From a virus, in IMG/VR virus record IMGVR_UViG_3300009163_000026, positions 22,856 through 86,855 of that record: DNA of 64,000 nt, one strand, 5' to 3'. The position numbers and the translations under genes are program-made. Position 1 is the stretch's first letter. Every line of letters starts with the position of its first letter. Positions 27,392 through 59,000 of the stretch are shown here, piece by piece. The notes under the pieces were generated by a model. The model ran no database searches. It was given only the letters and a program-made list of their open reading frames with translations, and had not been told where the DNA came from.

Positions 27392-27475
27392 ATATACGAA
27401 TTTATATTATCAAATGTATTTTTCAACTATTTTTAATAAGAAAATCTAAGTACTATTGTTTTTTATAGTCGTATT

Positions 27476-28684: not shown

Positions 28685-28734
28685 ATCTATATTTAGTCTA
28701 ATAGGTAAACAACTAAACTGATTACTAAAACTAT

Positions 28735-28768
28735 AGACCCTCACCTAGCGTTAGCCAAGTGAGGGTCT
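28735..28768 (-). terminator. Hairpin after the porin gene
   Basis: AGACCCTCAC..GTGAGGGTCT stem. Confidence 0.55.
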
Positions 28769-28795
28769 TGTAATTGTTAATATTAACGTTACGTA

Positions 28796-29533
28796 TTAGA
28801 ACGCACGCTTGAAGGCGATGCCGCCAAAGAATTCGTTCTCTGTATTGCCGTTAGCGCCTTGAAAATCGCTCAGTGAGATTGAGTATGCCACAAACGGTAC
28901 AGCAACAATGCCGCAGAATGTAGTATCGATTTCAGTAGACAGGGTTGTCTCTACATAAGTAGCCTCTCCTTGTTCTACGATATAACCAAGAGCTGTATTC
29001 AGATCAAGGGTAAAGGGCAGACCGAAGCTGTTTTTATAATCGACGCTGAATTCACCGTAGCTATTGTTGTCTCCTTCAACAGCGATATACTGTGTAAGGG
29101 ATAGATCAACAGGACCAACAGCTCTCGAAACGCCAAGGCCAACCTCCTGAGCTGCACCGCCAGTGTTGGTGACGAAGCCAGAGCTAAACCAGGTATAGCT
29201 TGCCGAGAAGCGAAAGTCGGCGATGTCTTTAGAAAAGACAGCAGACAGATCACCTTGATTATCCTCAATGGATTGCGAATTACTATAATCAGCAATCAAA
29301 CTAAGGTTAATATCAGCAGGTAGAACGATTGAACCAGTAACAACAGCAGACGCTTCATTCTGACCAATGTCTTGACCACGCCACATGTTAGTTGAACTAT
29401 AACCAACTTCAACGCTTGCATCAATTGTAGGTGATGGGCTTGGAGTTAGTTGAGGTGAACCAGCCGTAACGACTTGTACATTAGCGAGTGTAGCTAGAGC
29501 TACGATTGTAAACAGTGTGTTTAGTTTCTTCAT
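28796..29533 (-). CDS. Outer-membrane beta-barrel protein (TorF/Gcw_chp-like porin)
   Basis: Sec signal peptide; YSSTNMWRGQD; alternating beta strands; terminal Phe (FFGGIAFKRAF). Confidence 0.75.
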   Translation of the reverse strand: MKKLNTLFTIVALATLANVQVVTAGSPQLTPSPSPTIDASVEVGYSSTNMWRGQDIGQNEASAVVTGSIVLPADINLSLIADYSNSQSIEDNQGDLSAVFSKDIADFRFSASYTWFSSGFVTNTGGAAQEVGLGVSRAVGPVDLSLTQYIAVEGDNNSYGEFSVDYKNSFGLPFTLDLNTALGYIVEQGEATYVETTLSTEIDTTFCGIVAVPFVAYSISLSDFQGANGNTENEFFGGIAFKRAF

Positions 29534-29577
29534 ATAAGAATAATGTAAACACTGTAACTGTTAATGCAAGCAGAAAA

Positions 29578-29889
29578 TTAAATCTCTTTCCAGCCGCAAC
29601 CACAGCATAAAAATTGCTTATCCATGTAAGAGCCATACCCTTTAGTTCTAACTAAAACAGCATCCCCTACAGAAAGAGCGCGATGTGATTTCCATCGTGT
29701 GCTAAGTATTTCAAGCTGCGATTGACTTAATAATGACTCTGGTGCATTGGAGATATGAAAGGCTTCTTCTGCTGCAGCTTCACCCTGACACTCCGTCCAA
29801 TACCATAACGCAAATGTACGATGCGCGTCGCGTTCTTCAGAAAATAATTTTGTATTATCAATATTTAAATAAATCTCTACTTCCGTCAT
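29578..29889 (-). CDS. Hypothetical protein with RALSVGD (YodL-like) motif
   Basis: AF..N..RALSVGDAV..C...GW; GGAAC promoter 29896-29911. Confidence 0.65.
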   Translation of the reverse strand: MTEVEIYLNIDNTKLFSEERDAHRTFALWYWTECQGEAAAEEAFHISNAPESLLSQSQLEILSTRWKSHRALSVGDAVLVRTKGYGSYMDKQFLCCGCGWKEI

Positions 29890-29938
29890 ACCTTGATTAT
29901 AAGGATGTTCCTTTCAACTAAGTTACGAGCCAAAAATA

Positions 29939-30151
29939 TTACCAATAAGGACTTCTCCTAAGAGAGTAATAATAATTCAACGGCCTTGAATAGTATTCGT
30001 AAGGATAGGAATACCTTGGGTAAAATCTGTAATAATTAACACACGGATATTCTATGGGCTCAATATAAGCCGGGTCAATATATACATTACCTGTTGGTGT
30101 TATGACGCAAGAACACAATGCTAGTGATGCAAGTAAGGATAATAGTTTCAT
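29939..30151 (-). CDS. Small Tyr/Pro-rich lipoprotein
   Basis: MKLLSLLASLALCSC lipobox. Confidence 0.6.
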   Translation of the reverse strand: MKLLSLLASLALCSCVITPTGNVYIDPAYIEPIEYPCVNYYRFYPRYSYPYEYYSRPLNYYYSLRRSPYW

Positions 30152-31014: not shown

Positions 31015-31117
31015 TGGTCAATGTAGACAGAATCGAACTGTCGCTTCGGCATGTTTGCCTATCCTATCGGACAAGAAACCCTTTGCTTGGGGTGTGCTAC
31101 CACTACACTATACATTG
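31015..31117 (-). tRNA. Atypical 103-nt tRNA-like RNA with no canonical anticodon loop and two extra hairpins
   Basis: CAATGTA/TACATTG-ACCA acceptor, GTGT-AGTGGTA-GCAC D arm, GACAG-TTCGATT-CTGTC T arm. Confidence 0.7.
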
Positions 31118-38411: not shown

Positions 38412-38746
38412 AATTTATTTAAATTTTTATCAAACAATCCAAGCACCCAATTCAATCGGAATTGGCAATTAAAACGATCACTGGTGTAAAACAAATTACC
38501 AGCAATATCTTCCTCACTCTTATAGCCATAAGTATCTAACGGACTTCGCTCATCACGGCCATAATAATCATCAACGGCAAGCCACTTAGATTGTGCAGCA
38601 ATCACTCCAACATAAGGACGAATAATATCTTTTGCAGTTTCTAGAGGTACTCCTTGGCGGTAGAAATTACTAAACACATGTTTAGTCAACAGCTTGTAAC
38701 GTGCTGTTGCTTTTTTCTCAAGGCGATCCTTGGTCTTTTTTTTCAT
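38408..38746 (-). CDS. Hypothetical protein
   Basis: Variant promoter GAAAC-N5-TACAAT, ATG 5 nt downstream. Confidence 0.6.
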   Translation of the reverse strand: MKKKTKDRLEKKATARYKLLTKHVFSNFYRQGVPLETAKDIIRPYVGVIAAQSKWLAVDDYYGRDERSPLDTYGYKSEEDIAGNLFYTSDRFNCQFRLNWVLGLFDKNLNKL

Positions 38747-42779: not shown

Positions 42780-43213
42780 AAAGGTATATATAGGTACTTT
42801 TGCATTTCAATTTGGCCAATAGGGTTAGCTGAATGTATAAAAGTATTTATTCTACTAATCTTATTATTAGTCTTATGACAGAAATCTATAAAGTATTTCA
42901 CACAATCAAGGCCTGTTTTAACTTTAAAATTATCATATAGGATTTCATTGTGTTGCTTAGTGTGACTAAACCAATGATCAATGTGCTCCTGATCCAAATC
43001 ATGATCGAATGAAACGTTATTAGGTAAGCCTTTGGAGTTTAACATGAACACAAATTCATCATAACTACGCACAATTACCCAATCGTCGTCTTTTATGCCA
43101 GTCTGGTTAGCAAGTGATCTACTCGGCATAACCTTACCCTCACTATCACGCTTAGGATAAATATACGCGTGAGCCGGCATGCGAATATCATCAAGAAACA
43201 AATTATAACTCAT
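42776..43213 (-). CDS. Cyclic-phosphate-processing receiver-like domain protein
   Basis: LFLDDIRMP, VRSYDEF, SFDHDL, TGLDC, HSANPIG. Confidence 0.8.
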   Translation of the reverse strand: MSYNLFLDDIRMPAHAYIYPKRDSEGKVMPSRSLANQTGIKDDDWVIVRSYDEFVFMLNSKGLPNNVSFDHDLDQEHIDHWFSHTKQHNEILYDNFKVKTGLDCVKYFIDFCHKTNNKISRINTFIHSANPIGQIEMQKYLYIPL

Positions 43214-43544
43214 CTTTTAATCTTTTAAAAATTTCTTCAGATCCATGAATAACATCCTGTAATTCATCCTTTTCAAATACAAGAAGCTGCGGTACAGCTT
43301 TTATATTATGAAGCTTAAAAAACTCAGAATTATCTTCCATCTGCTTAATCTCAACAACAATATTATTTGTATCAAGCTTTGCCTTTAAAACCTTACACGG
43401 GCCACAAAAGTTAGCCGACGCTAATATGTACTTCTTTTTAGGTTTGAAGATATTATCCCAACCATCCCTGTATGCTTGATTAGGTGGTTCTGTCTTAATA
43501 AACTTTCCAGTTATATTGTTCTGTGCTATTATTCCTGTAGCCAT
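43203..43544 (-). CDS. Thioredoxin/glutaredoxin-like protein with N-terminal extension
   Basis: FCGPC active site; AVP cis-Pro loop. Confidence 0.8.
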   Translation of the reverse strand: MATGIIAQNNITGKFIKTEPPNQAYRDGWDNIFKPKKKYILASANFCGPCKVLKAKLDTNNIVVEIKQMEDNSEFFKLHNIKAVPQLLVFEKDELQDVIHGSEEIFKRLKDEL

Positions 43545-43735
43545 AAGTTATTTGAAGGATTGATATAATTGTTAAATATGTAATCAAAGATAGCTTCATC
43601 TTCATCATGATCAACTATATTAAGATCTGATAATAGCTTAGCGTATAGACTATCTTGCTGCGTAGATAAATCTACAATAGCTAGTTTAATACGCTCTATC
43701 TCTGTCTGTTGCTCTGTTGTTAGTTTAGTTTTCAT
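43529..43735 (-). CDS. Hypothetical protein
   Basis: ORF track. Confidence 0.55.
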   Translation of the reverse strand: MKTKLTTEQQTEIERIKLAIVDLSTQQDSLYAKLLSDLNIVDHDEDEAIFDYIFNNYINPSNNLWLQE

Positions 43736-44435
43736 CGGTATACCAAATGTCGAATTTTTTACGATATTTTTTAATAATTTCTAAGATCTTTTCAGCTGTT
43801 GCATCTTTTGTACTAGTAATGTTAACTAGATTATAGATAGTATCTATCAGCTTTTGTGAGTCAGAAGGGTGCGACTTACGTTGTTCTTTATACCTCTCCT
43901 CTCGCTCAACACGTTCAATGAATCGCTCTTTAACAAGAGTATCAACCTCTTCTTCCGTGTGCTTAACTGGGAGAGTATGACTAATAAGAATAACATCACC
44001 TTGTACCTTACCGTTAACTAATTGCACCTGATAATCAATCCACCCATACTGATAACGCAGGTAATTATATTTTCTATGAGATAATTCATTACTATAATCC
44101 TGATGATGATATGATTCGTGGAAATTAATTTCACCTGTAAAATCTACCTTCTCCCAACTACGAGACGTTTCAATATAGTTACCCAATTTATTCCATAAAG
44201 ATAGGGTAGACTTTAATTCTTCAGGTTCAGGATACTCCCAATATCCCTCAATCTTCTCAAAGAGCAGCTGTCCAGTAGAATCAACATTATACAGAGACAT
44301 TGCTTGATTAGGAGTATCTTTAGTTTGAAAGATAACATCACTAGAAAGATTGTCTCCTAGTTTATAGCGATTAAGTATCGCTTGCGGTAACTCCGGAAGC
44401 GGTAACTCTATTTTAAAGTGATCAAACATTCCCAA
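43725..44435 (-). CDS. Conserved phage protein (GMFD..QTKD motif)
   Basis: MGMFD, FQTKD, FTGEINF, WIDY..NGKV. Confidence 0.7.
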   Translation of the reverse strand: MGMFDHFKIELPLPELPQAILNRYKLGDNLSSDVIFQTKDTPNQAMSLYNVDSTGQLLFEKIEGYWEYPEPEELKSTLSLWNKLGNYIETSRSWEKVDFTGEINFHESYHHQDYSNELSHRKYNYLRYQYGWIDYQVQLVNGKVQGDVILISHTLPVKHTEEEVDTLVKERFIERVEREERYKEQRKSHPSDSQKLIDTIYNLVNITSTKDATAEKILEIIKKYRKKFDIWYTDEN

Positions 44436-44472
44436 AATTATTGTTTCTTTCTATTATTTTATTTGTTGTAAA

Positions 44473-44538
44473 TGGTGGACGCTGGGGAATCGAACCCCGT
44501 CCGCGACTTTCTTGTCACGTCGAATCCATGTAACGCCC
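44473..44538 (-). ncRNA. 66-nt tmRNA tRNA-like-domain-only RNA (mini-tmRNA)
   Basis: GGGCGTT-ACATGGATTCGA-CGTGAC-AAGAAA-GTCGCG-GAC-GGGG-TTCGATT-CCCC-AGCGTCC-ACCA; G3.U70, A73, stemless D loop with GGATTCGAC. Confidence 0.85.
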
Positions 44539-44578
44539 GTTAAAATTATTGTAATTTAATCTTTATTATTTGCAAGAT

Positions 44579-44824
44579 TTAAACGCTAATACTTTTACTA
44601 AAGTTCTTAACGCAACTCCTAGCACCATTAGGAATAAAATATTTTTTATTTCTATTCCAACTATCAGCGCTATGAATCTCAATTTCTGCACCGGTCTTAT
44701 GACCGTAGACTTGACGTCCCTTCGGTCGCGGCACATCAGGTCCAGTAAAAGCGCAACTCCTACAACACTTAAGACCGAGTTCGCGTCGACCTTCCTCAAC
44801 TAAGTTTCCACATCCACAATTCAT
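44579..44824 (-). CDS. DksA/TraR-like C4 zinc-finger protein
   Basis: CGCG..V.E.R.ELGL.CC.SC; GGAAC promoter 44831-44846. Confidence 0.65.
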   Translation of the reverse strand: MNCGCGNLVEEGRRELGLKCCRSCAFTGPDVPRPKGRQVYGHKTGAEIEIHSADSWNRNKKYFIPNGARSCVKNFSKSISV

Positions 44825-44852
44825 AACCTAATTATAATGGAGTTCCTTTGAG

Positions 44853-45035
44853 TTATAACTTACTGCTTTCTGCATACCACGCCATAATTTCATAATGAAA
44901 CTCTTTTTCTGTTAAGCGGTCTGTTGTGCTTATGAGAGCTACCGGTTCAACACCAGCACCTTCTTCATAAATTAAAATCCGACTTGTTTCACTCTCATAC
45001 TCAAACCGATATTTGCTAATACTACTACGGTACAT
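44853..45035 (-). CDS. Hypothetical protein
   Basis: ORF track. Confidence 0.55.
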   Translation of the reverse strand: MYRSSISKYRFEYESETSRILIYEEGAGVEPVALISTTDRLTEKEFHYEIMAWYAESSKL

Positions 45036-45049
45036 TTTTTTATTTTTTA

Positions 45050-45268
45050 TTATTCATTTGATGTCTCTAAGAATCTAATTAACTCTCTCGCAATTAAGAG
45101 TTTATCTACTATATTTACGTCATTCATTAAATTTCCCACTTTATTATCAATAATACTATAAATTCTCATATCTGAAGCCATAATAGATTTATCCTTTTTA
45201 ATGATGTACTCTAAATCTACTAATGTTCCTTCTGAATCATCAACGCTTATACCTCTCAAGATATTCAT
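45050..45268 (-). CDS. Hypothetical protein
   Basis: ORF track. Confidence 0.55.
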   Translation of the reverse strand: MNILRGISVDDSEGTLVDLEYIIKKDKSIMASDMRIYSIIDNKVGNLMNDVNIVDKLLIARELIRFLETSNE

Positions 45269-46313: not shown

Positions 46314-49262
46314 ATGGGTATTAAGATTTCAGACCTGCCAAAGGTTACATCAACTATAACGGGTGAAGAGTCTTTTATAGTTGTGCAGAATAATATAACT
46401 AAGCAGACGAGCTTAAATTTTGCACTTTCTAGTGACAGAAAAAGAACAGGGGATCTATACACTTTAATTACAGCTAATAGCGCAGGGTGGGCTACCGCAA
46501 GTCAAAATATTAACAACTTTGCTACGCTTACGAGCTTTACCGTGGGACCGGCTCAAAGTGCTACAGCAATATATACAACGGTTATAGGTCTTTGCTCCAT
46601 CGCTTCAGCTAGAGGTTCTATAGCATTAGGGGAAAATGTAAAAGCATTAGGTTCAAATAGTTTTGTACAGGGAACATGTAATACGGCTTGTGGCTCTAGA
46701 TCTAACGTATTAGGTGGTATTAATAATAGAGCTGTTGGTAATTGTTCTAGTGTAGTAGGTGGTCTTAGTAATCAGACTTGTGGGTTTATTTCCAATATAG
46801 GTGGTGGATTTAATAATATAGCTTTTGGTTCTTACGCTGCTGTAGCTGGCGGCTATAGTAATAATGCTTGTGGTAATAATTCCGTTGTAGCTGGTGGTAG
46901 TAATAATAAGGCTTGTAGTAAATGTTCTAATATAGCAGGGGGAGCTAATAATATTGCTTACGATACATCGTGTCTCCCCGGGGGAGATGATGATCAAGGA
47001 CTTAATGGTGCAAATACTATTGGAGGTGGTCTATTCAATGTCGCGGGTAATAGCTCTAGTTCAGGGTATGGATTTAATGTTGTAGCTGGTGGATGTCGTA
47101 ATATGGCAGTTGATGAATTCTCTAATGTGTCAGGTGGTCAGTATAATAGGGCTTTAAGTGCTTATTCTAATGTAGCTGGTGGGCGTTGTAATACGGCTTG
47201 TAATTGCTTTTCTACTGTAGCTGGCGGGAGTTTAAATATAGCTTCTGGTGCTAATTCTACCGTAGGTGGTGGAGCTCGTAATATAGCTTCTGGTGTTGTT
47301 TCTACTGTAGCTGGTGGTATTTATAATACAGCGTCTGCCCTTAATTCTAATGTGGCAGGCGGTAGTGATAATACAGCTTGTGGTTGTTATTCTAATGTAG
47401 CTGGTGGGCGTTGTAATACAGCTTCTGGCTATTATTCTAATGTAGCTGGTGGGCGTTGTAATACAGCTAGTTGTTATTGTACTAATGTAGCTGGTGGCTA
47501 TTGTAATACAGCTTCTGGTACTTATTCTAATGTAGCTGGTGGGCGTTGTAATACAGCTTCTTATTATGATTCTGCAGTAGGTGGAGGATTTAGTAATACA
47601 GCTAGTAGTTCTTTTTCTAATGTAGCTGGTGGTGGTAATAATACAGCTTCTGGTGTTGGTTCTAATGTAGCTGGGGGGCTAAATAATATTGCCTCATTTG
47701 GTGTTTCTAATGTAGCTGGTGGGTGTTGTAATAAGGCTTGTGGTGCTATTTCTAATGTAGCCGGTGGAGGTGATAATATAGCTTCAGGTTGTTATTCTAA
47801 TGTAGCCGGTGGTTTAAGTGGTAAAGCTTCTGGTTATGCTTCTAATGTAGCTGGTGGGTGTTGTAATACAGCTTGTGGTTTTTTCTCTAATGTAGCTGGT
47901 GGGTATCGTAATACAGCTCTTGGTAATTATTCTAATGTAGCTGGTGGGCGTTGTAATACATCTTCTGGTTATGTTTCTAATGTGGCTGGTGGGCAGTGTA
48001 ATACAGCTTCTGGTTGTTATACTAATGTAGCTGGTGGTGTGAGTAATAGAGCTTTGGTTTGTTTTTCTAACGTAGGTGGCGGGTATTGTAATGCAGCTTG
48101 TGAATGTTACTCTACTGTAGGTGGTGGGCGTTGTAATACATCTTCTGGTTATGTTTCTAATGTGGCTGGTGGTATTTGTAATGCAGCAAATGGTGTTAGT
48201 TCTAATGTAGCTGGTGGGAGGTGTAATACAGCTTCTAATTATTACTCTAATGTAGCTGGTGGGTGTTGTAATACAGCTTCTGGTACTTATTCTACTGTAG
48301 CTGGTGGGCGTTGTAATACAGCTTCTAATTATTACTCTAGTGTAGCTGGTGGGTATTGTAATACAGCTTCTGGTTGTTACTCTAATGTAGCCGGTGGGGT
48401 TAATAATACAGTTTCTGGTTTTTACTCTAATGTAGCTGGTGGAGCTTTAAATGCAGTTTCTGGTAGTTGTTCTAATGTAGGTGGTGGGTTTTGTAATACA
48501 GTTAGCAGCCTTTATGCTAATATAGCTGGTGGGAAGGGTAATTTAGCTTCTAATTATTCTGCTACTGTAGCTGGTGGTACTAGTAATACAGCTTCTGGTG
48601 TTTATTCTACTGTAGCAGGGGGACGGAACAATACAGCTTCTGGTTATGTTTCTAATGTAGCTGGTGGGTGTTATAATACAGCTTTAAGCGCTTATTCTAA
48701 TGTAGCTGGTGGGTGTTTTAATATAGCTTCTGGTTGTTATTCTAGTGTACTAGGTGGTCTTAGTAGTAGAGCTTCTGGTCCTTATTCTACTATAGCAGGA
48801 GGACAGTATAATACAGCTTCTGGTTGTTGGTCTACTATAGCAGGCGGCTTTCTTAATACAGCTTCTGGTACTTATTCTAATGTAGCAGTCGGCTATGGTA
48901 ATACAGCTTCTGGTACTTATTCTACTATAGCTGGTGGGCGTCTTAATACAGCTTCCAATTATCTAGCTATAGTAGGCGGTGGGGTTCGTAATACAGCTTC
49001 TGGATTTTACTCTAGTGTAATCAATGGTTTTAGTGGTAGAGTGTTTGCATGTCACTCTACTATACTTAATGGTTGCTGTAATACAATAAGAACTGCGGCT
49101 AGTGCTTCATCTATTCTAGCTGGTACAAGTGTTACTGCTATATCTGCAAATACGGCATACGCAACTTGCTTGGTGTTAAGCAACCTACCTAGTTCAAGCA
49201 CTGGTCTCGGTGCAGGTACTATATGGAAATGTACTGCAACAAATGCTTTGTATATTGTATAA
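46314..49262 (+). CDS. Tail fibre/adhesin with roughly 55 Cys-rich 14-aa repeats (SNVAGGxCNTASGx), YadA-head-like
   Basis: 42-bp periodic DNA; KISDLP N-terminal anchor; LPSS..GL..GTIW C-terminus. Confidence 0.85.
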   Translation: MGIKISDLPKVTSTITGEESFIVVQNNITKQTSLNFALSSDRKRTGDLYTLITANSAGWATASQNINNFATLTSFTVGPAQSATAIYTTVIGLCSIASARGSIALGENVKALGSNSFVQGTCNTACGSRSNVLGGINNRAVGNCSSVVGGLSNQTCGFISNIGGGFNNIAFGSYAAVAGGYSNNACGNNSVVAGGSNNKACSKCSNIAGGANNIAYDTSCLPGGDDDQGLNGANTIGGGLFNVAGNSSSSGYGFNVVAGGCRNMAVDEFSNVSGGQYNRALSAYSNVAGGRCNTACNCFSTVAGGSLNIASGANSTVGGGARNIASGVVSTVAGGIYNTASALNSNVAGGSDNTACGCYSNVAGGRCNTASGYYSNVAGGRCNTASCYCTNVAGGYCNTASGTYSNVAGGRCNTASYYDSAVGGGFSNTASSSFSNVAGGGNNTASGVGSNVAGGLNNIASFGVSNVAGGCCNKACGAISNVAGGGDNIASGCYSNVAGGLSGKASGYASNVAGGCCNTACGFFSNVAGGYRNTALGNYSNVAGGRCNTSSGYVSNVAGGQCNTASGCYTNVAGGVSNRALVCFSNVGGGYCNAACECYSTVGGGRCNTSSGYVSNVAGGICNAANGVSSNVAGGRCNTASNYYSNVAGGCCNTASGTYSTVAGGRCNTASNYYSSVAGGYCNTASGCYSNVAGGVNNTVSGFYSNVAGGALNAVSGSCSNVGGGFCNTVSSLYANIAGGKGNLASNYSATVAGGTSNTASGVYSTVAGGRNNTASGYVSNVAGGCYNTALSAYSNVAGGCFNIASGCYSSVLGGLSSRASGPYSTIAGGQYNTASGCWSTIAGGFLNTASGTYSNVAVGYGNTASGTYSTIAGGRLNTASNYLAIVGGGVRNTASGFYSSVINGFSGRVFACHSTILNGCCNTIRTAASASSILAGTSVTAISANTAYATCLVLSNLPSSSTGLGAGTIWKCTATNALYIV

Positions 49263-49396: not shown

Positions 49397-50074
49397 ATGT
49401 CAAAAATTCTCATTAACGACCTTGTCATCGCTACCAATATTACTGGTGGTGAGTTTCTTGTTTTAGATAATGTAACAAGTACAAAAAGAACTACGATCAA
49501 CTCACTTAGTTCAATATATGCGCTAAAAGGCAGTACCCAATCGACTACCACGACTACGTCTGATCCCCGTATTGCTCCGCTTGAAACTACTGTACGGTCA
49601 TTAACCGGCTCTGTAGTAAACTTAACAACATCCGCACAGAACTCAGTATACGATGTAGCATATCTTAATAATCAATTTATTAGCTTATCGAGCAGCTTCA
49701 AACAACTTACAACTAATGTTACAGCTGAAACTAACAAGATAGCAATACTATCGAGTCTAAATACATACTTGCCTATTGTTAGCGCTGTAAATAATAGCAA
49801 TTTTACTATAGCTCTTTCATCAATGGGCAACATGATAACATATACCGGTATGCAAAATATTACAGCTTTTATAACAAATAATATTAATGTTAACGGATTT
49901 GTATCTACTGTAGCTCAACTGAGCACTGGTACAATCACAATCGCTCTCAGCTCTACATATTCTGCTACCCGTATTGCTTATAATAATAGCTTTACTACTG
50001 CTGGAGTCGGCGCTGTCGCATCACTTATGAGAGTTAGCAATAATCAATTTCTTATTACAGGTCTGCTGCAATGA
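49397..50074 (+). CDS. Short fibre/virion structural protein
   Basis: N-terminal anchor like 46314; coiled coil; AQLSTGTITI..ASL..NQFLITGLL C-terminal domain. Confidence 0.7.
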   Translation: MSKILINDLVIATNITGGEFLVLDNVTSTKRTTINSLSSIYALKGSTQSTTTTTSDPRIAPLETTVRSLTGSVVNLTTSAQNSVYDVAYLNNQFISLSSSFKQLTTNVTAETNKIAILSSLNTYLPIVSAVNNSNFTIALSSMGNMITYTGMQNITAFITNNINVNGFVSTVAQLSTGTITIALSSTYSATRIAYNNSFTTAGVGAVASLMRVSNNQFLITGLLQ

Positions 50075-53000
50075 TTTTTAATTTTTTATTAGCCTCGGTA
50101 TTTGATCTGCAAGGACCAATCACGAAGCAAGCAAGCTCTGCAGATACTATCTACATATCAACTACAGGGCGTGATAATTATTATGGATTTACTCCATCAC
50201 GTCCCGTTAAAACCTTACAGGTTGCAATAGAGCGGCTCCGCACTACACAAGCATACGGTCCAAAAAACCGCTTCCTCGTCTTTGAAGGTGGTGAATATAA
50301 TATTAAAGAGTTGAACCCAACCGGAGCTATTTTTACATATGATGTTAATACTATTAATGATAATACATTGACCATACGGCCATATAACTCAACACCGGTT
50401 GTAATTGTGGGTAATAGATATAATGACAAGAATATTACAGCACTTTCAAACGGGTTATGGAAAATAGCAATTACAAAGAGCTTAAGTGAGCAATTTTACG
50501 ATTTTTATTTAAATGATCAAAGAATGTTTCCTGCGCGATTTCCGAAGCGTGGTACATATTCTCACGGTGAGTATAATACCGTTACACGGTCAAACGGTGA
50601 ACTTGTATTTCAAATAAAAGATACAACTAAGTTTATAACAGCTTTATCTAATGTTATTATTCCACGTAGTGTTAATAATGCGTCTATTGTTACAAGTGTT
50701 GATAATTATCTAGATATAGGTCCTACAGATAAGAATTACATTAAAGATATACGAGCTATTAGTACAAATATGTACTCTATTACGAGTAGCGTGATAGTAG
50801 ACGGTCTCTCGATATTGGGATATAATCCTTTATTTGTCAATACAAACTTAAAAGATCAAGCAGCAAGCTTATGCACGGTAGAGGGTGAGTTTGTTGTAAG
50901 TAAGGAGTTTAATGACTTGTTTATATATGTTAAGCCTTATAGCAATCTAACTATTAGCTCAACAACCTTCAATACTTTTGAAGGCCCAAGCTCTAAGTAT
51001 GGTGAACGCTTTGTAGATCACTCGTTTGATAGTATTAACGGTAATTTTCTGTACGCAGATAAAACAACTTTAAGTGGTAATGGGTTGGATTTTAATTCGG
51101 TTAGTAACGTCGTTGTAAAGGACCTCAACTTTAAGCATCTTAATAAAGCGATATCTAATTTTAACTACTGCCGTAACTTTACTATTAGTGGATGTGATAT
51201 ACGTCATTGTAGTAACGGCGTTCATAGCATAGATGCTACATCGCTTCAAGTATATAAAAACCTCGTATTTGATATAGATGGTAGCGGTATATTAATTCAG
51301 TCCTCTTTATCTGCGAAAGTAGCGAACAACATTATCAAGTATGTAGGTATGGTACGAACCTCGCAAGGTCGCTCCATCGATGTTAAAGCAATTAACGGTG
51401 CAATTTGGTCAAATTCAAGTAATGAAGCTGCGTTAACGGTATTAAGCGCTACTAACAATACCTTCACTATTAGTGTATCATCTATTACGAATAAAGGTTA
51501 TCCCAACAATTCCTATAGTAATGGTAATTTAAGATATCGTTTCCATCATCAGAATAACGGATATATAGAAATTCTGACTGGTGCATTAGCTGGTCAGAAG
51601 AGAATAGTTAACAATTATTATGTGTTAAGTAGTACCTTAGCTAACTTTAATACTGCCGATGAAACTGGGCTATCTAGCTACGGATTTGTTACATATGGTA
51701 TTGTTGATCCCTGGACGCCAGTAGGTGGTACATTAGTACCAGCAAAAGGAACTACACTTAAGTATGTTGGAGGTGGATCAAACCGCAATCAAAATTTTGT
51801 ATTGGAACATAATTTTCTTGAGTATGCTAGTACACAATGCATATCTATACGTGAGAGTATGTTTGCTACTATATCTGGTAATTATATATCGAGCGCTTCA
51901 TATGGTAGTACAGGTGGCACTGCTTTATATATTAGCGCAGAAGATATTAAGGTTAGTGATAATCAAATACAAAAGAGCCGTAAGGGACAAGGACAGAGTC
52001 AAGGTTTTGCAGTGTATGTAAGTTCATCAGCGCAGAGGGTACAAATAAAGAATAATATTATATCGCGTTCTGATGGAGGCTTATCTCTAGTTTCTCCGAA
52101 TCAAATAACAGTCACAAACAATATTATTGAGCGTTCGTATGATAGCTTGATACCTTTGGCAGCGCTTGCAAGTCCTCAGAGTACATATGCAGGAGCTAGC
52201 TCGACATATATGCTTAATTGCTCTAGTAATATTTTAATTACTTCACCTAGTATAGATTTTACATTTAAAAAGCAAGATTATTTTGTAACTCCGGCTGCAA
52301 ATAATTTAAGTGGAGGTCTTCAAGCATATAGCCCTGCAATGAGAGTAGTTAACTTTCGTTTATCCGCATCAGATACCGACTACTATAGCTTCTCATTATT
52401 TCCTACTGCTATAGATGAGAAGGAACGGTTTAGCCTTATAACTAATAACGAAAAATTTTATAGATGTGGGGTTATAAATAACAGACCTGTATACCTAATA
52501 GCTTCTACTACATTAGGATTTTATGTAAAGAATAACAACTGGGTGCTTGGCACACTTTATACCTCTACTATATATCTATCATCAAACTGCGGTATCATTG
52601 GATTCAACTACCCATGGAGTTTATCAGCGACACGAAATTATTTTAGACCTGAATCTGGTAGCGCTAACAAACTTGACTTTTATTTTGAATATTACTCAAA
52701 TAAGCGAGCAGTACCACTTGTATATACGCATAATAATTGTCTCTATACTGATATAGTAGATTATAAAACAACAAAATACCCACTACTCTCAAATAATTTC
52801 CACGCGTGGGCTGGTCAAGTCGCTCCTGATCGTAACGGTGTATATACAGGATTTCAAAGTCTAAGTGTAACGGAGGTTACTGTACCATCATTCCAAGAAA
52901 CTCGAACTTTCTGGAATAGTTCAAACATGTTCACCATGTCATCTGGATTTGACGGCCTTGTTGATTGGGAAGAGAGCTCAATATTCGCCAATCCAAAATT

Positions 53001-56000
53001 AACTCTTTCTTCATATCAAGTAGCTAATGACTCACCTGCTCTTGGACTCGGATTTACTCAAATAGATGTTCAATCTATTGGACTACTTAAAGATAGTAAT
53101 ACATGGGTTGCCTTAGCTAGTACACTACAAGCACGGCCGATATATGGTAGTGCTGACTGGGCTGATTATACTTATTATAACGATAACGACCCGTATCTGC
53201 CCGTAGTATATAATAATGTTGATGATTTAAAGAAGTTGAAGAGTCAAAACCCGTTTGACAGAGCCGGTGGTAACACACAGCCTTACAGAACTGGAAATAT
53301 AGTTAGAGTGTTAAATGATTTTACTGATAGTTATGACGGTATTATTTATGAATGGGCTAATAAGAGTATCGCTGTAGCTAACGATCAAGAGATTGTTATT
53401 CCGGATACCTATACAAGTAATCTTTCAGGTCGCTGGATTCATACACTCGCTGCTCCAATTTCAACAGTAAACATCTCTAGGTTTGGAGCTGTTGGTGATG
53501 GTGTGACTGATGATGCTCCTGCTATTCGAGAGGCTATTCTTTATTGTACAAAGAATAATATTCAAATTCTTCAGTTTAATAGTGGTACGTACTTTTTATC
53601 GTCTTATGCACCGTGGAGTGCACAGTACGGCGCTGGTCATGAGCTTATTAGTATAGGCTCACCTCAAAAACTACTAAGCAGCTATCCGAAAGTGGAGTTA
53701 ACGTTACTTGGCAGCACTAACGGTACTACTACACTATCTGCGACAACGAATAGCTACAGTCTCGCCAACGGAAGTTATTCTATGTCGATTATCGGGATCG
53801 GGATGCACATAAAATCTCTTAAGATACGACGCTTAACGCTTATTTGGGACGGTGGTAACACGTATGAATTACCTGCACCACCTGCTGGAGCGTTTACCCA
53901 GGAATACAAGACTTTACTTAGTACTAGAAAACATAGCGTACCAGGTGAAGAGTTCTTCAGTGGTATTATGACATCGATTGCCGATAGAGATGTGCTATAC
54001 GCCGGTGCCTATGCTTGGCCTACACCTATCGATATTGAAATTGTAGAGATATCTAACTGTGTATTTATTAATTGTCATAGAGCAATTACCTGGAACAGCA
54101 CTTGTCAAATACCCGGTAGAGGAGTATTAAAATTAGATATTAAATTTAATACATTCTTATATCCAAAAGGTACAGATTTATATGGCACACCGGGCCATGG
54201 TACTGGTAACCAAATAACATACTTTGACCGAGATATAGCTAAGCTCTATTTTACAGATAATTTTGTTGAAGGTACAACATATACTGACCCACCGCGATGT
54301 CAGAATGAAGCATCAAAGGACGGATGTATAACGTTTCTTGGATTAAGTTCAGTTATTGCACGTAATACGTTTACTCGGATGTGGATTGAGACTATTCAAG
54401 CTACATGTGTTGGACCCGCTGGCTTTGCACAGAATTGGGAGTCACTTACGATACCTTCCATAGGTCAAACCTTAACAGCTGTATATGAAACTAGATTAGG
54501 TAATCCTGGAACCTATAGTCTATGGCAGAAGGGATCAGGAGGTTCACCATATGCTCCTGGAAACGTTGTAAGTTTTACTGACGGTAACTCGTATGGTGGT
54601 GGTGTATACCGTGTTGATAGGTATGTACCAGATAAGGTACTAGTTGCACCTGGTCATCCTAACTATTTTCAAGGCTATGATACAACATCACGGGGATTAT
54701 CTGCTGTATGGACTCGTATAGATCCACCGGGTGGTGCGGGTGTATTTGCGGATGGTAGAACTGGTGCTGTTGGCAAGCCTTTACAAGACGGTATGTTTGT
54801 CTATTATAACTTTGACGGTGAGTATAACACACAGTGTGCAATTATCGATAATATTTTTGAACCTGGTATTACAAGCTTTACCCCAGCAGGAAGATCAGGC
54901 ACACTATCACAAGCATCTCTGAGAACTAATCATGGACCCTGTGTTAGATCAGATAACGGTACTTTATATCTAAGTGGTAACTACTTTACTGGTGGATCGT
55001 TAAGTCTTAATACACGATCTGCCTCTCCGTTTAGTAAAGCTACAGTTGAATATAATAATTTTCATATTTATGATTATATGTATCTGAAAGGCTTTGTTGG
55101 AAACTATAGTGGAAGTATATATACCTCTAACACTGTTAACGATATTTACTACCCAATCGTACCAGCAAGCACAACTTTAAGTTCTACGGTAATAAGACAA
55201 AATAATTTTCATTTTTGGCAGGACCTTAATACAGGCGGTATATCTTTAACTGCAAATACAGATTTTAAACACGGCTTCGGTGAGTTCGCGCTTCATGCTG
55301 ATAACAACGACCTCGGTAATGTTAATGTGTTTGTAGATAATACGACATATTGCTATGTTCCTGCGCTATCTAGCTATCTACTAGAACACGCTAAAAATAA
55401 TTATAGAGCTGCAGGTAGAAATAACATTGTTAACGCGGAAGATATACTATCTGGCAACAAGCTTGTCAATGTGTTTCCTGACTATGTTAACGTTAGTTCA
55501 TTCGGCGCAAAGGGAGACGGTGTAACCGATGATCAACCTGCTATTCAACGTGCTATCGATTTCTGTAGTCTTAACAATATCCCTACTATATACTTTAGCT
55601 CAGGTGTTTATTATTTAAGTTCAACCGCTACAGGTACAGGCACACCAAACACAGGTAACGGGATTGGAGTTGGTGCTGGTGATCACTTAAATATTGGATA
55701 CTATCCCGAAGCTACTAATATTATATCTTATGCTACAATGTATAATAATATTAACTATAAGCCTACTAATCCTAAGAAGATTAGTTTGAATTTAGTCGGC
55801 ACAGGCACAACAATATTGAGTGCTAGAAAGCAGGATAGACTAAGACAGTATGGCGGTCAAGCTAGTATTATAGCCTTAAGAGAAAATATTAATAATTTTA
55901 AGATGGAAGGCTTAACTCTTGTCTGGTCTGGTAGCGCTACAGCCGCTGGATCACCTGAACCACAGGGTGTTATTATTACTAGCAATTACGGACGTGCTGC

Positions 56001-59000
56001 TTTCTGGCCTATTAATAGAAATCAAATTGATATATTAAATTGTACGTTTATTAACTGCCACGGAGCTATTTCCAGTTATAGCTCTATATTAACAGGTAAG
56101 GGTACCAACACCGTTAATATTATCGGCTGTAATTTCCGCTATCCGAAAGGTAGTGATAGTAAATCGTTAAACGGTGGCGGTGTAGTTACAGATTTTAGGT
56201 ACGATACACTCAACCTTAATATTACAGATAATTTTGCTGAAGGTAGTACAACAATACCTGTAGATAGTCCAAACTATTATCCTAAAGATTTATTTATCGT
56301 AGCGGGTGGCGTCAATAATCGGTATGAGCGCAATACTATGGCAAGATTTTATCAACCGATAAATGCTTCAACATTTGGCCCTGGTATATCTATAACTACT
56401 CAATTACCGATACCTCCTGTCGGTGGCACTATTACACTGTCTGCTCTAAATACTGCTAAGAATCCTGGTTCAAATGAGTATCTTCAGAGTATATCGATAC
56501 TCTCTGCGTACCAAGGGTTTGCTGTAGGAAATATCGTAACACTAGTTTCACCCTACGCTGGAGTATATGTTATTAACAGTCTAGCTGAATCGAATTCCAA
56601 TAGGTATATAATTGTCGCAACCCGATTAAGTGGAGCTGACTACGGTGGTGAGTTCGCAAACATTGATGTAGCTGCTACTGGGAGCATCCCAAACAGTTCG
56701 TTCCTTGTACCGTTTAACTTTCAAAATAAAATTAATTGTGGTACATATATATATGATAATATCTTTACAGCAGGTCTCGCCATATCGAGCCCTACAAATA
56801 AAATTCTAGCGAATCAACCAGCGATTGGTGCGAATTCTGGATTTATATCTATCAGCGGTAACTCTATACCTGCATATCAGGCAGTACGTAGTACTTTTGA
56901 TGGTACAGACTTTAGAAGTGAATGTAGAATTGAACGGAATACGTTCTATAGCTATTCTGCTGGTAGTAATCCAGCTGTATGCTTTATAACATCATATCAA
57001 AGTTCAATTGTAAGCAATAAGTTTTACTTTTGGTCAGACTTCCTTAATAATAATTCATTAGTTTTAACTAAACCTGCAGAAATAACTAGTGGCTACGGCT
57101 ACGGAGCTAATCGTGTTTCATGGGCAGGTGTAGATATTAATAGCACTACATATGCTAAAAAACAAGCATATCCTAGTACTGCTAATGTAGGTAATCATAT
57201 AGTAGCAAATAATATATTTTATTGCACTTATGCTCTCTCTGCAAATAATATTATACCTGTAGTGAACAAGACTACATTTGATATAGATTATGGAAATATT
57301 GTGCAAACACCGACTAAACCGGTGGTTACTTTAGGCTCTTCAAATACGTCTACCACACCAAGACTTCATTTTAGTTTTGCAAATAGCCTTTCTGATATAT
57401 CTGCTACGTATACTATACAAGTTGCAGAGACTGCTCCTACTTTAGATTTTGTTGATATATTAACACTTAAACCTACATCTACAGAAACAATTATTTCTAA
57501 TTATGTATCTACCTATAAAGGCTTAACACTAAAATATAATTCCATATATTGGTTGAGAGTGTTACCGAGAGATAAAGACGGTGTAGACATACCGTTTACA
57601 TCAGTATCTGATAGTATAAGTAGTTATACAGTACCTAACAGACCAGCAATCAATACAAGCTCAACAGTAAAAACAACTAATGCAATAACTATTAACTGGG
57701 CTGTGATATCAGCTACTCTAAATGGAGGAATTAAGCTATATTATAACCCGATACCGACTAACAATCTGCCAGTACAAGCGACTATAATATACCTAACCAA
57801 TACAGATAGTAGCTATACAGTTACAGGTCTCAATAGCTCCACTGGTTATAACTTCAAGGTAGCTGCATATAATTTGAATGGTGCTGTAGAGTATGAAGGT
57901 CCGGCATCCGTGGAAGTTAGCATCTATACAAATAGTGTACCACCGCCAGCGAATTCTAAATTAACTAGCCTCACACTCAACAACGGTACATTAACCCCGA
58001 ATTTTGCTGAAGGTACGACGACCTACAATGTAAGCGTACCTGCTACAACAACATCCATTACTACCACACCAACAGTCATCGACAGCAACGCAACTGTGAA
58101 GGTGAATGGAGTCACCGTGGCTTCGGGTATGGCAAGTGTGCCACTGGATTTAGTAACCGGATCTAATTCGATCAGCATAGAAGTCACTGTAACTAATGAG
58201 TCTACAACGATATATACAGTAGTAGTTATACGAGCAGCAGGGATTGTTACGCTGCCTACGATAGATACATCACCTAGCATTGCTTACTCCTTTGTTAATA
58301 AGTCTTCCGAGGCCTTAGGTTATGGACTCTACATATCTGATGGAGGAGATTTTACACTACACAAATCGTTTGAAGCGGTAGAACTAAACGAAATCATTAC
58401 TGATGTTATACCGAATCTTGCATATAATTCAAAATATAGTATAAAGGTTGTATACTTTAATAATCAAGATGACTTCAATATATATACTATAGCATTACCG
58501 GCTCCTACTATCACACTAGCAACCTCAACACCAGCCATTACAAGGTATACCGACTCAACCCTGACTTGGTCAACAACTAATGCTCAATCTGTAACAATCG
58601 ACTCTCTCTCTATACGTAATAAGTCAAGTACTTTCTCTGTAGCTCAAAACGCTTTATCTAGTGGTAGTTTAACTATTACACCATCAGCGACTACTACATA
58701 CACAATCCGGGTACTTGATGAGGTAGGTGAAACGAGTACATTAAGTACAACTCTTTTAGTTGTATCATCACCTATTGCTACACTATCAGCTTCAATCTCG
58801 CCAATTCTTACAGGAGCTTCATCAACTATTACATGGTCGACAACCTATGCAACATCCGCGTTCATTGATTCTCGTTCGATAACTGGTCGGTATGAAAACC
58901 TCGGTCGCGTAGCTATAACTAGCGGTAGTTTAACAGTTTCTCCATCTGCAACTACAAGCTACACAATTAGTGCGTTTAACGCTGCAGGTACCCTTGCAAC

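What the first reader, a model, noticed from the sequence alone, without database searches (positions are those of the whole stretch)
44473..44538. Mini-tmRNA: a tRNA-like domain with no mRNA or tag domain
Seen: a 66-nt RNA with a 7-bp acceptor stem carrying G3.U70, A73 and encoded CCA (AlaRS identity), a stemless D loop containing GGAUUCGAC, and a GAC linker before the T arm. Helix P2a (CGUGAC/GUCGCG) is capped by a 6-nt loop in place of the roughly 300-nt pseudoknot/ORF region. The T stem has only 4 bp. A TACAAT -10 lies just upstream. Established: these are the SmpB- and AlaRS-binding hallmarks of tmRNA, not of tRNA-Ala. Inference: the RNA could sequester SmpB and block host trans-translation, or accept nascent chains from stalled ribosomes without adding a degradation tag, which would help when host defences cleave mRNA or tRNA.
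Basis: partly seen in the sequence, partly recalled or inferred. Interest (0 to 1): 0.88.

Follow-up and report, generated by a model that had tools for sequence, protein, structure and literature searches.

The report
Phage tag-less mini-tmRNA gene
This freshwater phage carries a real 66-base gene for just the alanine-accepting, tRNA-like end of the bacterial ribosome-rescue RNA (tmRNA), a type known from mycobacteriophage DS6A, where it blocks the host rescue-and-tagging system; this copy is a new, slightly shortened member.

Summary
It has no room for a tag frame or pseudoknots.

It is not chance. Rfam's tmRNA model aligns it end to end (43.8 bits, E 1e-17, just under the cut-off of 47), while the tRNA model does not match. 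A model I built from 82 similar RNAs in viral contigs scores it 46.2 bits, and scores the published DS6A 'TLD only' gene, which was not used to build it, 55.1 bits.

The family shows strong covariation, with G3.U70 in 84 of 88 and A73 in 88 of 88 distinct sequences. Six further distinct relatives in kindred freshwater phages keep the odd 4-bp T stem and show compensatory changes. Their hairpin caps differ (GAAA, UUCG, UAAC), so the hairpin is not an anticodon arm.

No tag-coding piece, SmpB or integrase lies in the 86.8-kb contig, which is only 41% complete. One relative carries both a mini and a full tmRNA.

The most likely function is competition with host tmRNA for SmpB, so stalled products escape tagging. 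This is inferred, not shown.

The kind is already published, and this scan has met it before on other phage DNA.

The parts
44473..44538 (-). Mini-tmRNA (TLD-only, CDS-less tmRNA) gene, 66 nt, GC 59% in a 37.8% GC genome
   Evidence: Sequence read. RF00023 43.8 bits, E 1.3e-17. R1 46.2 bits. No RF00005 match. 0 of 66 differences to strain L131.
44532..44538 (-). Acceptor stem 5' strand GGGCGUU (RNA positions 1-7), G3 of the G3.U70 pair
   Evidence: In the subfamily, G1-C, G2-C, G3.U and C4-G are invariant (7 of 7), and pairs 5 and 6 change on both sides.
44520..44531 (-). Unpaired D-loop analogue ACAUGGAUUCGA (positions 8-19), carrying the tmRNA GGnUUCGA(C) motif
   Evidence: Aligns with the 5' ends of bacterial and phage full-length tmRNAs.
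44502..44519 (-). P2a hairpin: CGUGAC, loop AAGAAA, GUCGCG (positions 20-37). It stands in place of the ~300-nt pseudoknot and tag region.
   Evidence: The helix is kept in relatives, while the caps differ in length and sequence (GAAA, UAAC, UUCG, A-rich).
44499..44501 (-). GAC linker (GGAC together with the last P2a base)
   Evidence: GGAC is present in 88 of 88 family members, and the first G was not forced by the search pattern.
44484..44498 (-). T arm: 4-bp stem GGGG/CCCC and T loop UUCGAUU
   Evidence: Local Rfam tmRNA hit on exactly this stretch. The 4-bp stem is invariant in all 7 distinct subfamily sequences. Five full-length tmRNAs looked at have 5 bp.
44473..44483 (-). Acceptor 3' strand AGCGUCC, discriminator A, encoded CCA
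   Evidence: The discriminator is A in 88 of 88 and CCA is encoded in 32 of 88 family members.
44548..44575 (-). Sigma-70-like promoter candidate: TTGCAA, 16-nt spacer, TACAAT, ending 9 nt before G1
   Evidence: with no excess over shuffles. In strain L131 the only change in this intergenic stretch (44551) turns the -10 into TATAAT.
44831..44846 (-). Copy of the phage's own promoter-like motif GGAAC-N5-TATAAT, 293 nt upstream of the RNA, in front of the 81-aa ORF. A possible source of a co-transcript.
   Evidence: 20 exact copies in the window, all on the minus strand, against 0.1 expected. No terminator-like site in 43800-45200.
44579..44824 (-). Upstream co-oriented ORF, 81 aa, no known family, highly variable between strains
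   Evidence: 38 differences in 246 nt to L131.
43725..44435 (-). Downstream co-oriented ORF, 236 aa, viral hypothetical protein, no known family
   Evidence: Not conserved next to the mini-tmRNA in more distant relatives.

Best explanation
The element is a functional phage gene for a 66-nt tag-less mini-tmRNA, that is, the tRNA-like domain (TLD) only.

Proposed mechanism, all of it inferred:
1. It is transcribed either from the TTGCAA-16-TACAAT site 9 nt upstream, or as part of the minus-strand message that starts at the GGAAC-N5-TATAAT motif at 44846.
2. It is trimmed like a tRNA.
3. Host AlaRS can charge it, because it has G3.U70, A73 and CCA.
4. Host SmpB can bind it, because it has the GGAUUCGAC loop, the GGAC linker, the start of P2a and the T arm.
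5. It has no resume codon, tag frame or stop codon, so it cannot complete trans-translation.
6. It therefore competes with host tmRNA for SmpB, and perhaps for EF-Tu and stalled ribosomes, during infection.
7. As a result, stalled or truncated translation products are no longer given the ssrA degradation tag.

Shown here: the anatomy, membership in a conserved covarying family enriched in viral contigs, and kinship with the DS6A gene.

Inferred from literature and sequence: charging, SmpB binding, expression, and the effect on the host.
For: - Anatomy matches a tmRNA TLD point by point.
- RF00023 aligns it globally at 43.8 bits, above the tRNA-sized (75-85 nt) hits, presumably ordinary tRNAs, that the same kind of search gives at 33.5 bits or less in four bacterial genomes. 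RF00005 does not match it.
- Family: one pattern scan returned at least 119 viral contigs. 107 of 122 matches have a 6-7-bp acceptor stem that the pattern did not ask for.
- Across 91 distinct aligned rows (a few of them ordinary tRNAs), 91.5% of cells pair, against 64% when shuffled. The covariation score is 0.611 against 0.135, with 0 of 500 shuffles as high.
- In 88 distinct family sequences, G3.U70 is present in 84, A73 in 88 and GGAC in 88.
- Members with a 5-bp T stem pass Rfam's tmRNA cut-off at 59-71 bits although they are only 64-82 nt long.
- Own subfamily: 7 distinct sequences from related freshwater phages that share many genes. 95.2% of cells pair, 4 pairs change on both sides, and the 4-bp T stem is invariant.
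- A strain that is 93.5% identical over 1.87 kb has 0 of 66 changes in the RNA (P about 0.012).
- DS6A's published TLD-only gene scores 55.1 bits with R1 without having been used to build it.
[quoted passage not shown] The DS6A form inhibits endogenous tmRNA in E. coli (PMC11915505). A 5'-25 plus 3'-34 TLD joined by a UUCG loop binds SmpB in crystals (PMC3929946).
- The same pattern is mostly TLD-only in viral contigs but gives only about 5 of 120 such genes in bacterial genomes.
Against: - There is no direct evidence of expression. One metatranscriptome contig covers 44166-44514, but it could be DNA carry-over and it ends inside the gene.
- The score is under Rfam's cut-off (43.8 against 47), and the window sequence was one of the 82 used to build R1.
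- The single-sequence fold is not significant (z -1.57).
- The T stem has 4 bp, so the acceptor/T stack has 11 layers instead of 12. In 4 of 7 relatives the 7th acceptor pair is a C.A mismatch. This could weaken handling by RNase P, the CCA enzyme or EF-Tu.
- According to PMC4131195, inhibition did not depend on chargeability. Yet the family keeps G3.U70 and A73 almost without exception, which suggests that charging, and so some action on the ribosome, matters.
- A related phage carries a complete tmRNA with an ...ALAA-type tag as well as a mini. Simple shut-off of trans-translation is therefore not obviously the aim in this lineage.
- The host is unknown, so fit to its SmpB and AlaRS is untested.
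Confidence: 0.55

Rival explanations
1. Ribosome-active, tag-less rescuer. Ala-charged mini-tmRNA with SmpB and EF-Tu enters stalled ribosomes and takes over the nascent chain. It adds one or several alanines without any template, and the chain is then released by Pth, ArfB or drop-off. Phage translation would be freed after mRNA damage without the normal tag, or with a short Ala tail instead.
For: - AlaRS identity elements (G1-C72, G2-C71, G3.U70, A73) are near-invariant, while pairs 4-7 of the same stem vary freely. That pattern is expected only if charging is selected.
- SmpB with a TLD fragment supports polyalanine synthesis without template mRNA in vitro (PMC3929946, citing Shimizu and Ueda 2006).
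- CDS-less tmRNAs of mitochondria and some plastids are thought to help with incomplete mRNAs (PMC11915505).
Against: - There is no release mechanism in the RNA itself.
- The only in-vivo datum reported is inhibition of tmRNA (PMC4131195, PMC11915505).
- The 11-layer acceptor/T stack of this subfamily may fit EF-Tu and the ribosome poorly.
Confidence: 0.2
2. tRNA-like punctuation mark. The structure mainly tells RNase P and RNase Z/E where to cut the long minus-strand phage transcript between the 81-aa and 236-aa ORFs. The excised RNA has no role of its own.
For: - It sits between co-oriented ORFs with no terminator nearby.
- A phage-type promoter motif lies 293 nt upstream.
- An RNA-library contig runs from inside the element into the downstream ORF.
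- In relatives the RNA abuts tRNA genes or an ORF end without room for its own promoter.
Against: - A cutting signal needs only an acceptor/T minihelix. It does not explain conservation of G3.U70, A73, GGnUUCGAC and GGAC across the family, nor the tmRNA-model match.
- The neighbouring genes are not conserved with it.
Confidence: 0.1
3. Non-functional remnant. It is either a deletion derivative of a phage or host tmRNA on its way to decay, or a piece of ssrA kept as an integration (attP) site.
For: - A related phage has a full tmRNA whose acceptor stem resembles that of its own mini, so minis probably arose from full genes by internal deletion.
- Many temperate phages integrate into ssrA (PMC9004378 mentions this).
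Against: - Both TLD halves are kept and joined by a helix that covaries.
- The RNA is identical in a strain that differs at 6.5% of flanking positions.
- It is conserved across phages whose shared proteins are only 30-90% identical.
- An att copy would hold only the 3' part of ssrA.
- No integrase was found in the 86.8 kb available.
Confidence: 0.05
4. A D-arm-less alanine tRNA, in which the hairpin is an anticodon arm that decodes a codon.
For: The topology (acceptor, loop, hairpin, 4-nt linker, T arm) equals that of a D-armless tRNA.
Against: - The loop has 6 nt, not 7.
- In relatives the cap is a GAAA, UAAC or UUCG tetraloop or an A-rich 6-8-nt loop on a stem of 6-8 bp.
- The tRNA model gives no match at E<=1, and ARAGORN calls nothing here.
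Confidence: 0.02

Closest known systems
'TLD only' / CDS-less tmRNA of Mycobacterium phage DS6A (JN698994 28478-28560; tmRNA Website tmID 11587; Mao et al. 2009 as cited in PMC4131195 and PMC11915505)
   Same: Phage-borne. Complete tmRNA tRNA-like domain with G3.U70 and discriminator A, P2 closed on itself, and no tag frame or pseudoknots. Both are found by the same covariance model R1 (55.1 and 46.2 bits). Neither is called by ARAGORN or reaches Rfam's tmRNA cut-off.
   Different: DS6A is 83 nt with a 5-bp T stem, an inner AAAACCGCACGCGG hairpin on P2 (the majority form of the family) and no encoded CCA. The window RNA is 66 nt with a bare 6-bp P2a and a 6-nt cap, a 4-bp T stem and an encoded CCA. 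The hosts and phage types are unrelated: an actinophage of 60 kb against a large AT-rich freshwater phage.
Canonical one-piece tmRNA (SsrA, Rfam RF00023)
   Same: 5' end GGGnnnn...GGnUUCGAC and 3' end GGAC, T arm, acceptor strand, A, CCA. Alanine identity elements.
   Different: Lacks the ~300 nt with PK1-PK4, resume codon, tag ORF and stop. The T stem is 4 bp instead of 5. The score of 43.8 bits is below the gathering score of 47.
Engineered TLD fragments used in structural and in-vitro work (T. thermophilus 5'-25 + 3'-34 joined by UUCG, PDB 2CZJ; TLD of Shimizu and Ueda 2006; both as described in PMC3929946)
   Same: Nearly the same design: TLD halves joined by a short capped P2a helix. The relative L103 even uses a UUCG cap. 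These fragments bind SmpB and act on ribosomes in vitro.
   Different: Those are laboratory constructs with a 5-bp T stem. This one is a natural, conserved gene.
CDS-less organellar tmRNAs (jakobid/oomycete mitochondrial mt-tmRNA, Rfam RF02544; ~65-bp plastid genes of Mallomonadaceae, PMC11915505)
   Same: Natural tmRNA derivatives of 65-80 nt without a tag frame.
   Different: They serve as the organelle's own rescue RNA together with an imported SmpB. There is no sequence-model match: RF02544 gives nothing at the element.
Full-length phage tmRNAs (mycobacteriophage Bxz1 group, Bacillus phage G, marine Melnitz-like phages; PMC4131195, PMC9004378), and the 305-nt tmRNA of related contig G002 (L255:1501-1805)
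   Same: Phage-encoded trans-translation RNA. The G002 gene has an acceptor stem much like the mini-tmRNA of the same phage.
   Different: They encode a tag (G002: GKNNVVDSGLALAA) and can complete trans-translation.

Membership tests
tmRNA (RF00023), tRNA-like domain | 7-bp acceptor stem with G3.U70, unpaired discriminator A, 3' CCA | tested here: met
   In the family, G3.U70 is in 84 of 88 and A73 in 88 of 88.
tmRNA (RF00023), tRNA-like domain | D-loop analogue without a stem carrying GGnUUCGAC, and a GGAC linker before the T arm | tested here: met
   Same motifs and spacing as in bacterial and phage full-length tmRNAs.
tmRNA (RF00023), tRNA-like domain | T arm with a 5-bp stem and a UUCRANU loop | tested here: inconclusive
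   The loop is canonical. The stem has 4 bp in all 7 subfamily sequences, against 5 bp in the five full tmRNAs compared.
tmRNA (RF00023), whole molecule | Score at or above Rfam's gathering threshold (47 bits) | tested here: not met
   43.8 bits global; 9.4 bits in local cmscan. TLD-only relatives with a 5-bp T stem do pass, at 59-71 bits.
tmRNA (RF00023), whole molecule | mRNA-like domain: resume codon, tag ORF ending in a stop, flanking pseudoknots | tested here: not met
   Only 6 nt lie between the P2a strands. ARAGORN finds no tmRNA. No tag-like frame and no similarity to the tmRNA of the related phage G002 beyond the T arm anywhere in the 86.8-kb contig.
tmRNA (RF00023), whole molecule | Alanylation by AlaRS and binding of SmpB | not testable with these tools
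   Inferred from identity elements only.
TLD-only (CDS-less) phage tmRNA, DS6A type | Complete TLD whose P2 helix is closed by a short hairpin, in a phage genome | tested here: met
   (IMG/VR virus record). One model finds both the DS6A gene and this one.
TLD-only (CDS-less) phage tmRNA, DS6A type | Conserved, covarying homologues (a gene, not debris) | tested here: met
TLD-only (CDS-less) phage tmRNA, DS6A type | Inhibits endogenous tmRNA when expressed | not testable with these tools
   Reported for the DS6A-type molecule (PMC4131195, PMC11915505). Not tested for this RNA.
Two-piece (permuted) tmRNA, RF04321 | Acceptor and coding pieces in permuted order; a separate coding piece present | tested here: not met
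   Only the T arm matches, at 10.9 bits. The 5' and 3' TLD halves are in standard order and joined by a hairpin. The other weak hits lie inside coding sequence.
tRNA (RF00005), including D-armless tRNA-Ala | Anticodon arm with a 7-nt loop; match to the tRNA model | tested here: not met
   No RF00005 match at E<=1. The loop has 6 nt here and is a tetraloop in relatives.
mt-tmRNA (RF02544) | Match to the mitochondrial CDS-less tmRNA model | tested here: not met
   No match at the element. The best hit in the genome is 15.1 bits, elsewhere.

The most novel reading that the evidence does not exclude
The mini-tmRNA is not a plain SmpB sponge but a second, ribosome-active arm of a phage-run trans-translation system. 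The family's near-invariant alanine identity implies that the RNA is charged. In this freshwater lineage it would work beside a phage-encoded full tmRNA, as seen in relative G002. For example, it could divert host SmpB and stalled ribosomes to template-free Ala addition or untagged release while the phage's own tmRNA sets a different tag. The conserved loss of one T-stem base pair would tune which factor (EF-Tu, ribosome, RNase P) accepts it.
Probability: 0.15. Interest if true: 0.8.

Novelty: new member of a known kind. Interest (0 to 1): 0.55.

Why it matters
Trans-translation is the main ribosome-rescue and quality-control path of bacteria, and it is a drug target.

A natural, compact RNA that phages use to interfere with it would be a ready-made inhibitor scaffold. 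It would also be a clue to how phages keep translation going when defences cut mRNA.

In the papers I could search, the only phage example named is DS6A. The data gathered here show the same design in well over a hundred viral contigs. They also show a distinct freshwater subfamily with a 4-bp T stem that both ARAGORN and Rfam's threshold miss, and one phage that carries both a full and a mini tmRNA.

For this window alone the gain is modest. It is one more member, already anticipated by published work and by earlier reports of this scan.

Tried and rejected
- **Similarity to known phages.** BLAST of the 2-kb region against 50,697 phage records gave no match.
- **BLAST of the 66 nt against phages.** Only T-arm or 3'-end matches appeared. 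Six cultured-phage hits fetched and scored with R1 gave 37 bits or less. That is the level of ordinary tRNAs, so none is a clear mini-tmRNA.
- **Host hunt.**
  - The phage DnaK against phage records gave only generic DnaK hits.
  - A 342-aa conserved protein gave no match.
  - BLAST of the related phage's full tmRNA against 401 Bacteroidota genomes hit only the T arm.
  - The two Bacteroidota tmRNAs examined have UUUUGAC instead of UUCGAC in the D-loop motif.
  - The host stays unknown.
- **Split-gene idea.** Weak permuted-tmRNA hits at window 57133-57246 and 38591-38655 lie inside coding sequence. A regex for ...A[LV]AA-stop tags and BLAST with a phage tmRNA found nothing.
- **Partner protein.** No SmpB domain in this contig or in three related contigs. 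The 236-aa downstream ORF has no Pfam or PHROG family, and its only Atlas neighbour is a viral hypothetical cluster at 0.82.
- **attP idea.** No integrase was found.
- **Reads.** RNA run X6 has no contig on the element. RNA run X24 covers only 44166-44514. All laid runs are contigs, so RNA ends, strand and level cannot be read.
- **Literature.** Mao et al. 2009 is not held in the library, so its result is quoted second-hand.

Full report
**What is there.** The window is part of an 86,855-bp IMG/VR virus contig: freshwater, 37.8% GC, CheckV completeness 41%. On the minus strand at 44473-44538 lies a 66-nt, 59% GC stretch. Read 5' to 3', it contains the following:
- a 7-bp acceptor stem (GGGCGUU with AGCGUCC) containing G3.U70 and a U6.G wobble;
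- a 12-nt unpaired stretch with GGAUUCGA;
- a 6-bp helix (CGUGAC with GUCGCG, one U.G) capped by AAGAAA;
- the linker GAC;
- a 4-bp T stem (GGGG/CCCC) with the loop UUCGAUU;
- A at the discriminator position and an encoded CCA.

The strand was not stated. The element lies in a 143-nt gap between two co-oriented ORFs of unknown family, 44579-44824 and 43725-44435.

**Is it more than chance?**
- Rfam's tmRNA model aligns the element from model position 1 to 374 at 43.8 bits, E 1.3e-17 for the genome. That is just under the curated 47 bits.
- In four bacterial genomes the same kind of search gives tRNA-sized (75-85 nt) hits, presumably ordinary tRNAs, at 33.5 bits or less.
- Local cmscan sees only the T arm.
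- The tRNA model finds five tRNAs in the contig but not this element, even at E<=1. ARAGORN calls nothing here.
- Folding the single sequence is not decisive: -24.1 kcal/mol, z -1.57, and the MFE structure mispairs the T region.

**Relatives.**
- In 107 of 122 matches the flanks form a 6-7-bp acceptor stem that the pattern did not ask for.
- I aligned 82 distinct sequences (A1), built the covariance model R1 and realigned 92 hits (A2).
- On A2, 91.5% of cells pair against 64% after shuffling and 44-54% after sliding. Seventeen of 22 pairs change on both sides. The covariation score is 0.611 against 0.135, with 0 of 500 shuffles as high.
- Among 88 distinct family sequences, G1-C72 occurs in 87, G2-C71 in 86, G3.U70 in 84, discriminator A in 88 and the full GGAC in 88. 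CCA is encoded in 32. Lengths run 58-85 nt, with a median of 82.
- Acceptor pairs 4-7 vary freely. The alanine identity set is therefore specifically conserved.
- The same pattern in 185,579 prokaryote genomes mostly hits the 3' ends of ordinary tmRNA genes and tRNAs. Only about 5 of 120 are TLD-only genes.
- ARAGORN called none of 60 members as a tRNA or as a short tmRNA; its one tmRNA call, at L081, is a spurious 324-nt gene that borrows the mini's 3' end.
- Members with a 5-bp T stem pass Rfam's tmRNA threshold at 59-71 bits while being only 64-82 nt long.

**The window's own subfamily.** A stricter pattern with the 4-bp T stem found 5 viral and 7 metagenome contigs, giving 7 distinct sequences. 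Their contigs share many proteins with this phage at 30-90% identity, so this is a lineage of related freshwater phages.
- On the model-guided alignment A4, 95.2% of cells pair and 4 pairs change on both sides. G3.U70 and the GGGG/CCCC T stem are invariant.
- The seventh acceptor pair is U-A here, U.G in two sequences and a C.A mismatch in four. The acceptor/T stack therefore has 11 layers, with a variable middle one, instead of the canonical 12.
- The hairpin caps differ: AAGAAA here, GAAA, UAAC and UUCG tetraloops, and A-rich loops, on stems of 6-8 bp. This rules out an anticodon arm and any coding role.
- Contig L131 is a close strain: 93.5% identity over window 43166-45035, with 122 differences. 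It has 0 differences in the 66 nt (P about 0.012 at the regional rate). One change at 44551 turns the upstream TACAAT into TATAAT.

**Link to the published case.** The tmRNA database papers list Mycobacterium phage DS6A as 'TLD only'. [quoted passage not shown] They also state that the DS6A form inhibits endogenous tmRNA in E. coli (PMC11915505).
- I fetched DS6A 27000-30000. R1, built without it, finds the gene at record positions 28478-28560 with 55.1 bits. It has the majority architecture, with an inner hairpin on P2.
- The window RNA is a shorter variant of the same kind.
- I found no paper describing a broad phage family. The 2025 database paper still names only DS6A among phages.
- This scan has reported the class several times on other genomes.

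**Split gene, remnant or att site?**
- The contig holds no full or permuted tmRNA. The weak permuted hits lie in coding sequence.
- There is no tag-like frame and no similarity to a related phage's tmRNA body.
- There is no SmpB and no integrase.
- A TLD closed on itself cannot be half of a two-piece tmRNA.
- The contig is only 41% complete, so a full tmRNA elsewhere in the genome cannot be excluded.
- The related contig G002 carries both a 305-nt tmRNA (120.5 bits, tag GKNNVVDSGLALAA) and, 7.6 kb away in a tRNA array, a mini-tmRNA with a very similar acceptor stem.
- Downstream of the G002 tmRNA lies a gene homologous to window 28793-29413. The corresponding place in this phage has no tmRNA.

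**Expression context.**
- A sigma-70-like site (TTGCAA, 16 nt, TACAAT) ends 9 nt before G1, but such sites are no more frequent than in shuffles.
- The phage's own motif GGAAC-N5-TATAAT occurs 20 times, all on the minus strand, against 0.1 expected. One copy sits 293 nt upstream, at 44831-44846.
- No terminator-like site lies nearby.
- In relatives the RNA directly follows tRNA genes or an ORF end. Processing from a longer transcript is therefore likely.
- One metatranscriptome contig of the L131-type strain covers 44166-44514. This is compatible with a co-transcript but does not prove transcription.

**Mechanism.** The best-supported reading is a decoy for the host's trans-translation factors. 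The RNA has what AlaRS and SmpB recognise but no template, so it should compete with host tmRNA and lower tagging.
- Engineered TLDs of almost the same design bind SmpB, and with SmpB they even support template-free polyalanine synthesis (PMC3929946).
- Because the family preserves the alanine identity so strictly, a ribosome-level role (tag-less rescue or Ala addition) is a serious rival.
- The co-occurrence with a full phage tmRNA in G002 argues against plain shut-off.
- A pure processing-signal role, a decaying remnant and a D-armless tRNA are less likely, for the reasons given under rival explanations.

**Verdict.** This is a genuine gene and a new, compact member of a published but barely explored kind. 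The distinct points are the conserved 4-bp T stem, the fact that standard detectors miss it, and a relative carrying both full and mini forms.

Noticed in passing
L255:1501-1805 (-) and L258/L103 (contig IMGVR_UViG_3300027659_000068 = G002): A related phage encodes both a complete 305-nt tmRNA (RF00023 120.5 bits, tag GKNNVVDSGLALAA) and, 7.6 kb away inside an 8-tRNA array, a 69-nt mini-tmRNA with a near-identical acceptor stem.
   Followed up: partly
window 31018-31117 (-): A 100-nt tRNA-like gene (RF00005 42.9 bits, above cut-off) lies next to tRNA-Gly. ARAGORN does not call it. It has a long insertion in the anticodon or variable region and is conserved in relatives L258 and L103.
   Followed up: partly
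window, 20 sites from 8786 to 44846, all minus strand: The exact motif GGAAC-N5-TATAAT occurs 20 times against 0.1 expected by chance. It looks like a phage-specific promoter class with an unusually short spacer.
   Followed up: partly
window 25523-27391 (-): A phage-encoded full-length DnaK/Hsp70 (Pfam HSP70, 813 bits), about 60% identical to bacterial DnaK.
   Followed up: no
window 50071-61008 (+) and 46314-49262 (+): A 3645-aa ORF and a 982-aa ORF with a UspA1-type adhesin repeat, on the opposite strand to most genes. They are probably giant fibre or adhesin proteins.
   Followed up: no
window 44632-44724, inside ORF 44579-44824: A 91-nt block is replaced by diverged sequence of the same length in a related strain (DNA run X2). 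It holds most of the 38 differences that strain L131 shows in this ORF. This is a strain-level hypervariable patch right upstream of the RNA gene.
   Followed up: no
G006:C919:10383-10466 (Pseudanabaenaceae cyanobacterium LEGE 13415; also L212): A bacterial genome with its own 389-nt tmRNA also holds an 84-nt TLD-only gene that passes Rfam's tmRNA cut-off (54.2 bits). It is probably on a prophage.
   Followed up: no
L081:5905-6228: ARAGORN reports a 324-nt 'tmRNA' with an implausible tag (AWDYNPMWVQCSA). The call borrows the 3' end of an 81-nt mini-tmRNA, which shows how these genes can be mis-annotated.
   Followed up: no
L275:355-428 (Roseobacter phage DSS3P8, KT870145 14399-14472): An unannotated 74-nt G3.U70 tRNA-like sequence lies just after annotated tRNA-Val and tRNA-Ala. 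It scores 32.3 bits with R1, which is too low to say whether it is a divergent mini-tmRNA.
   Followed up: partly
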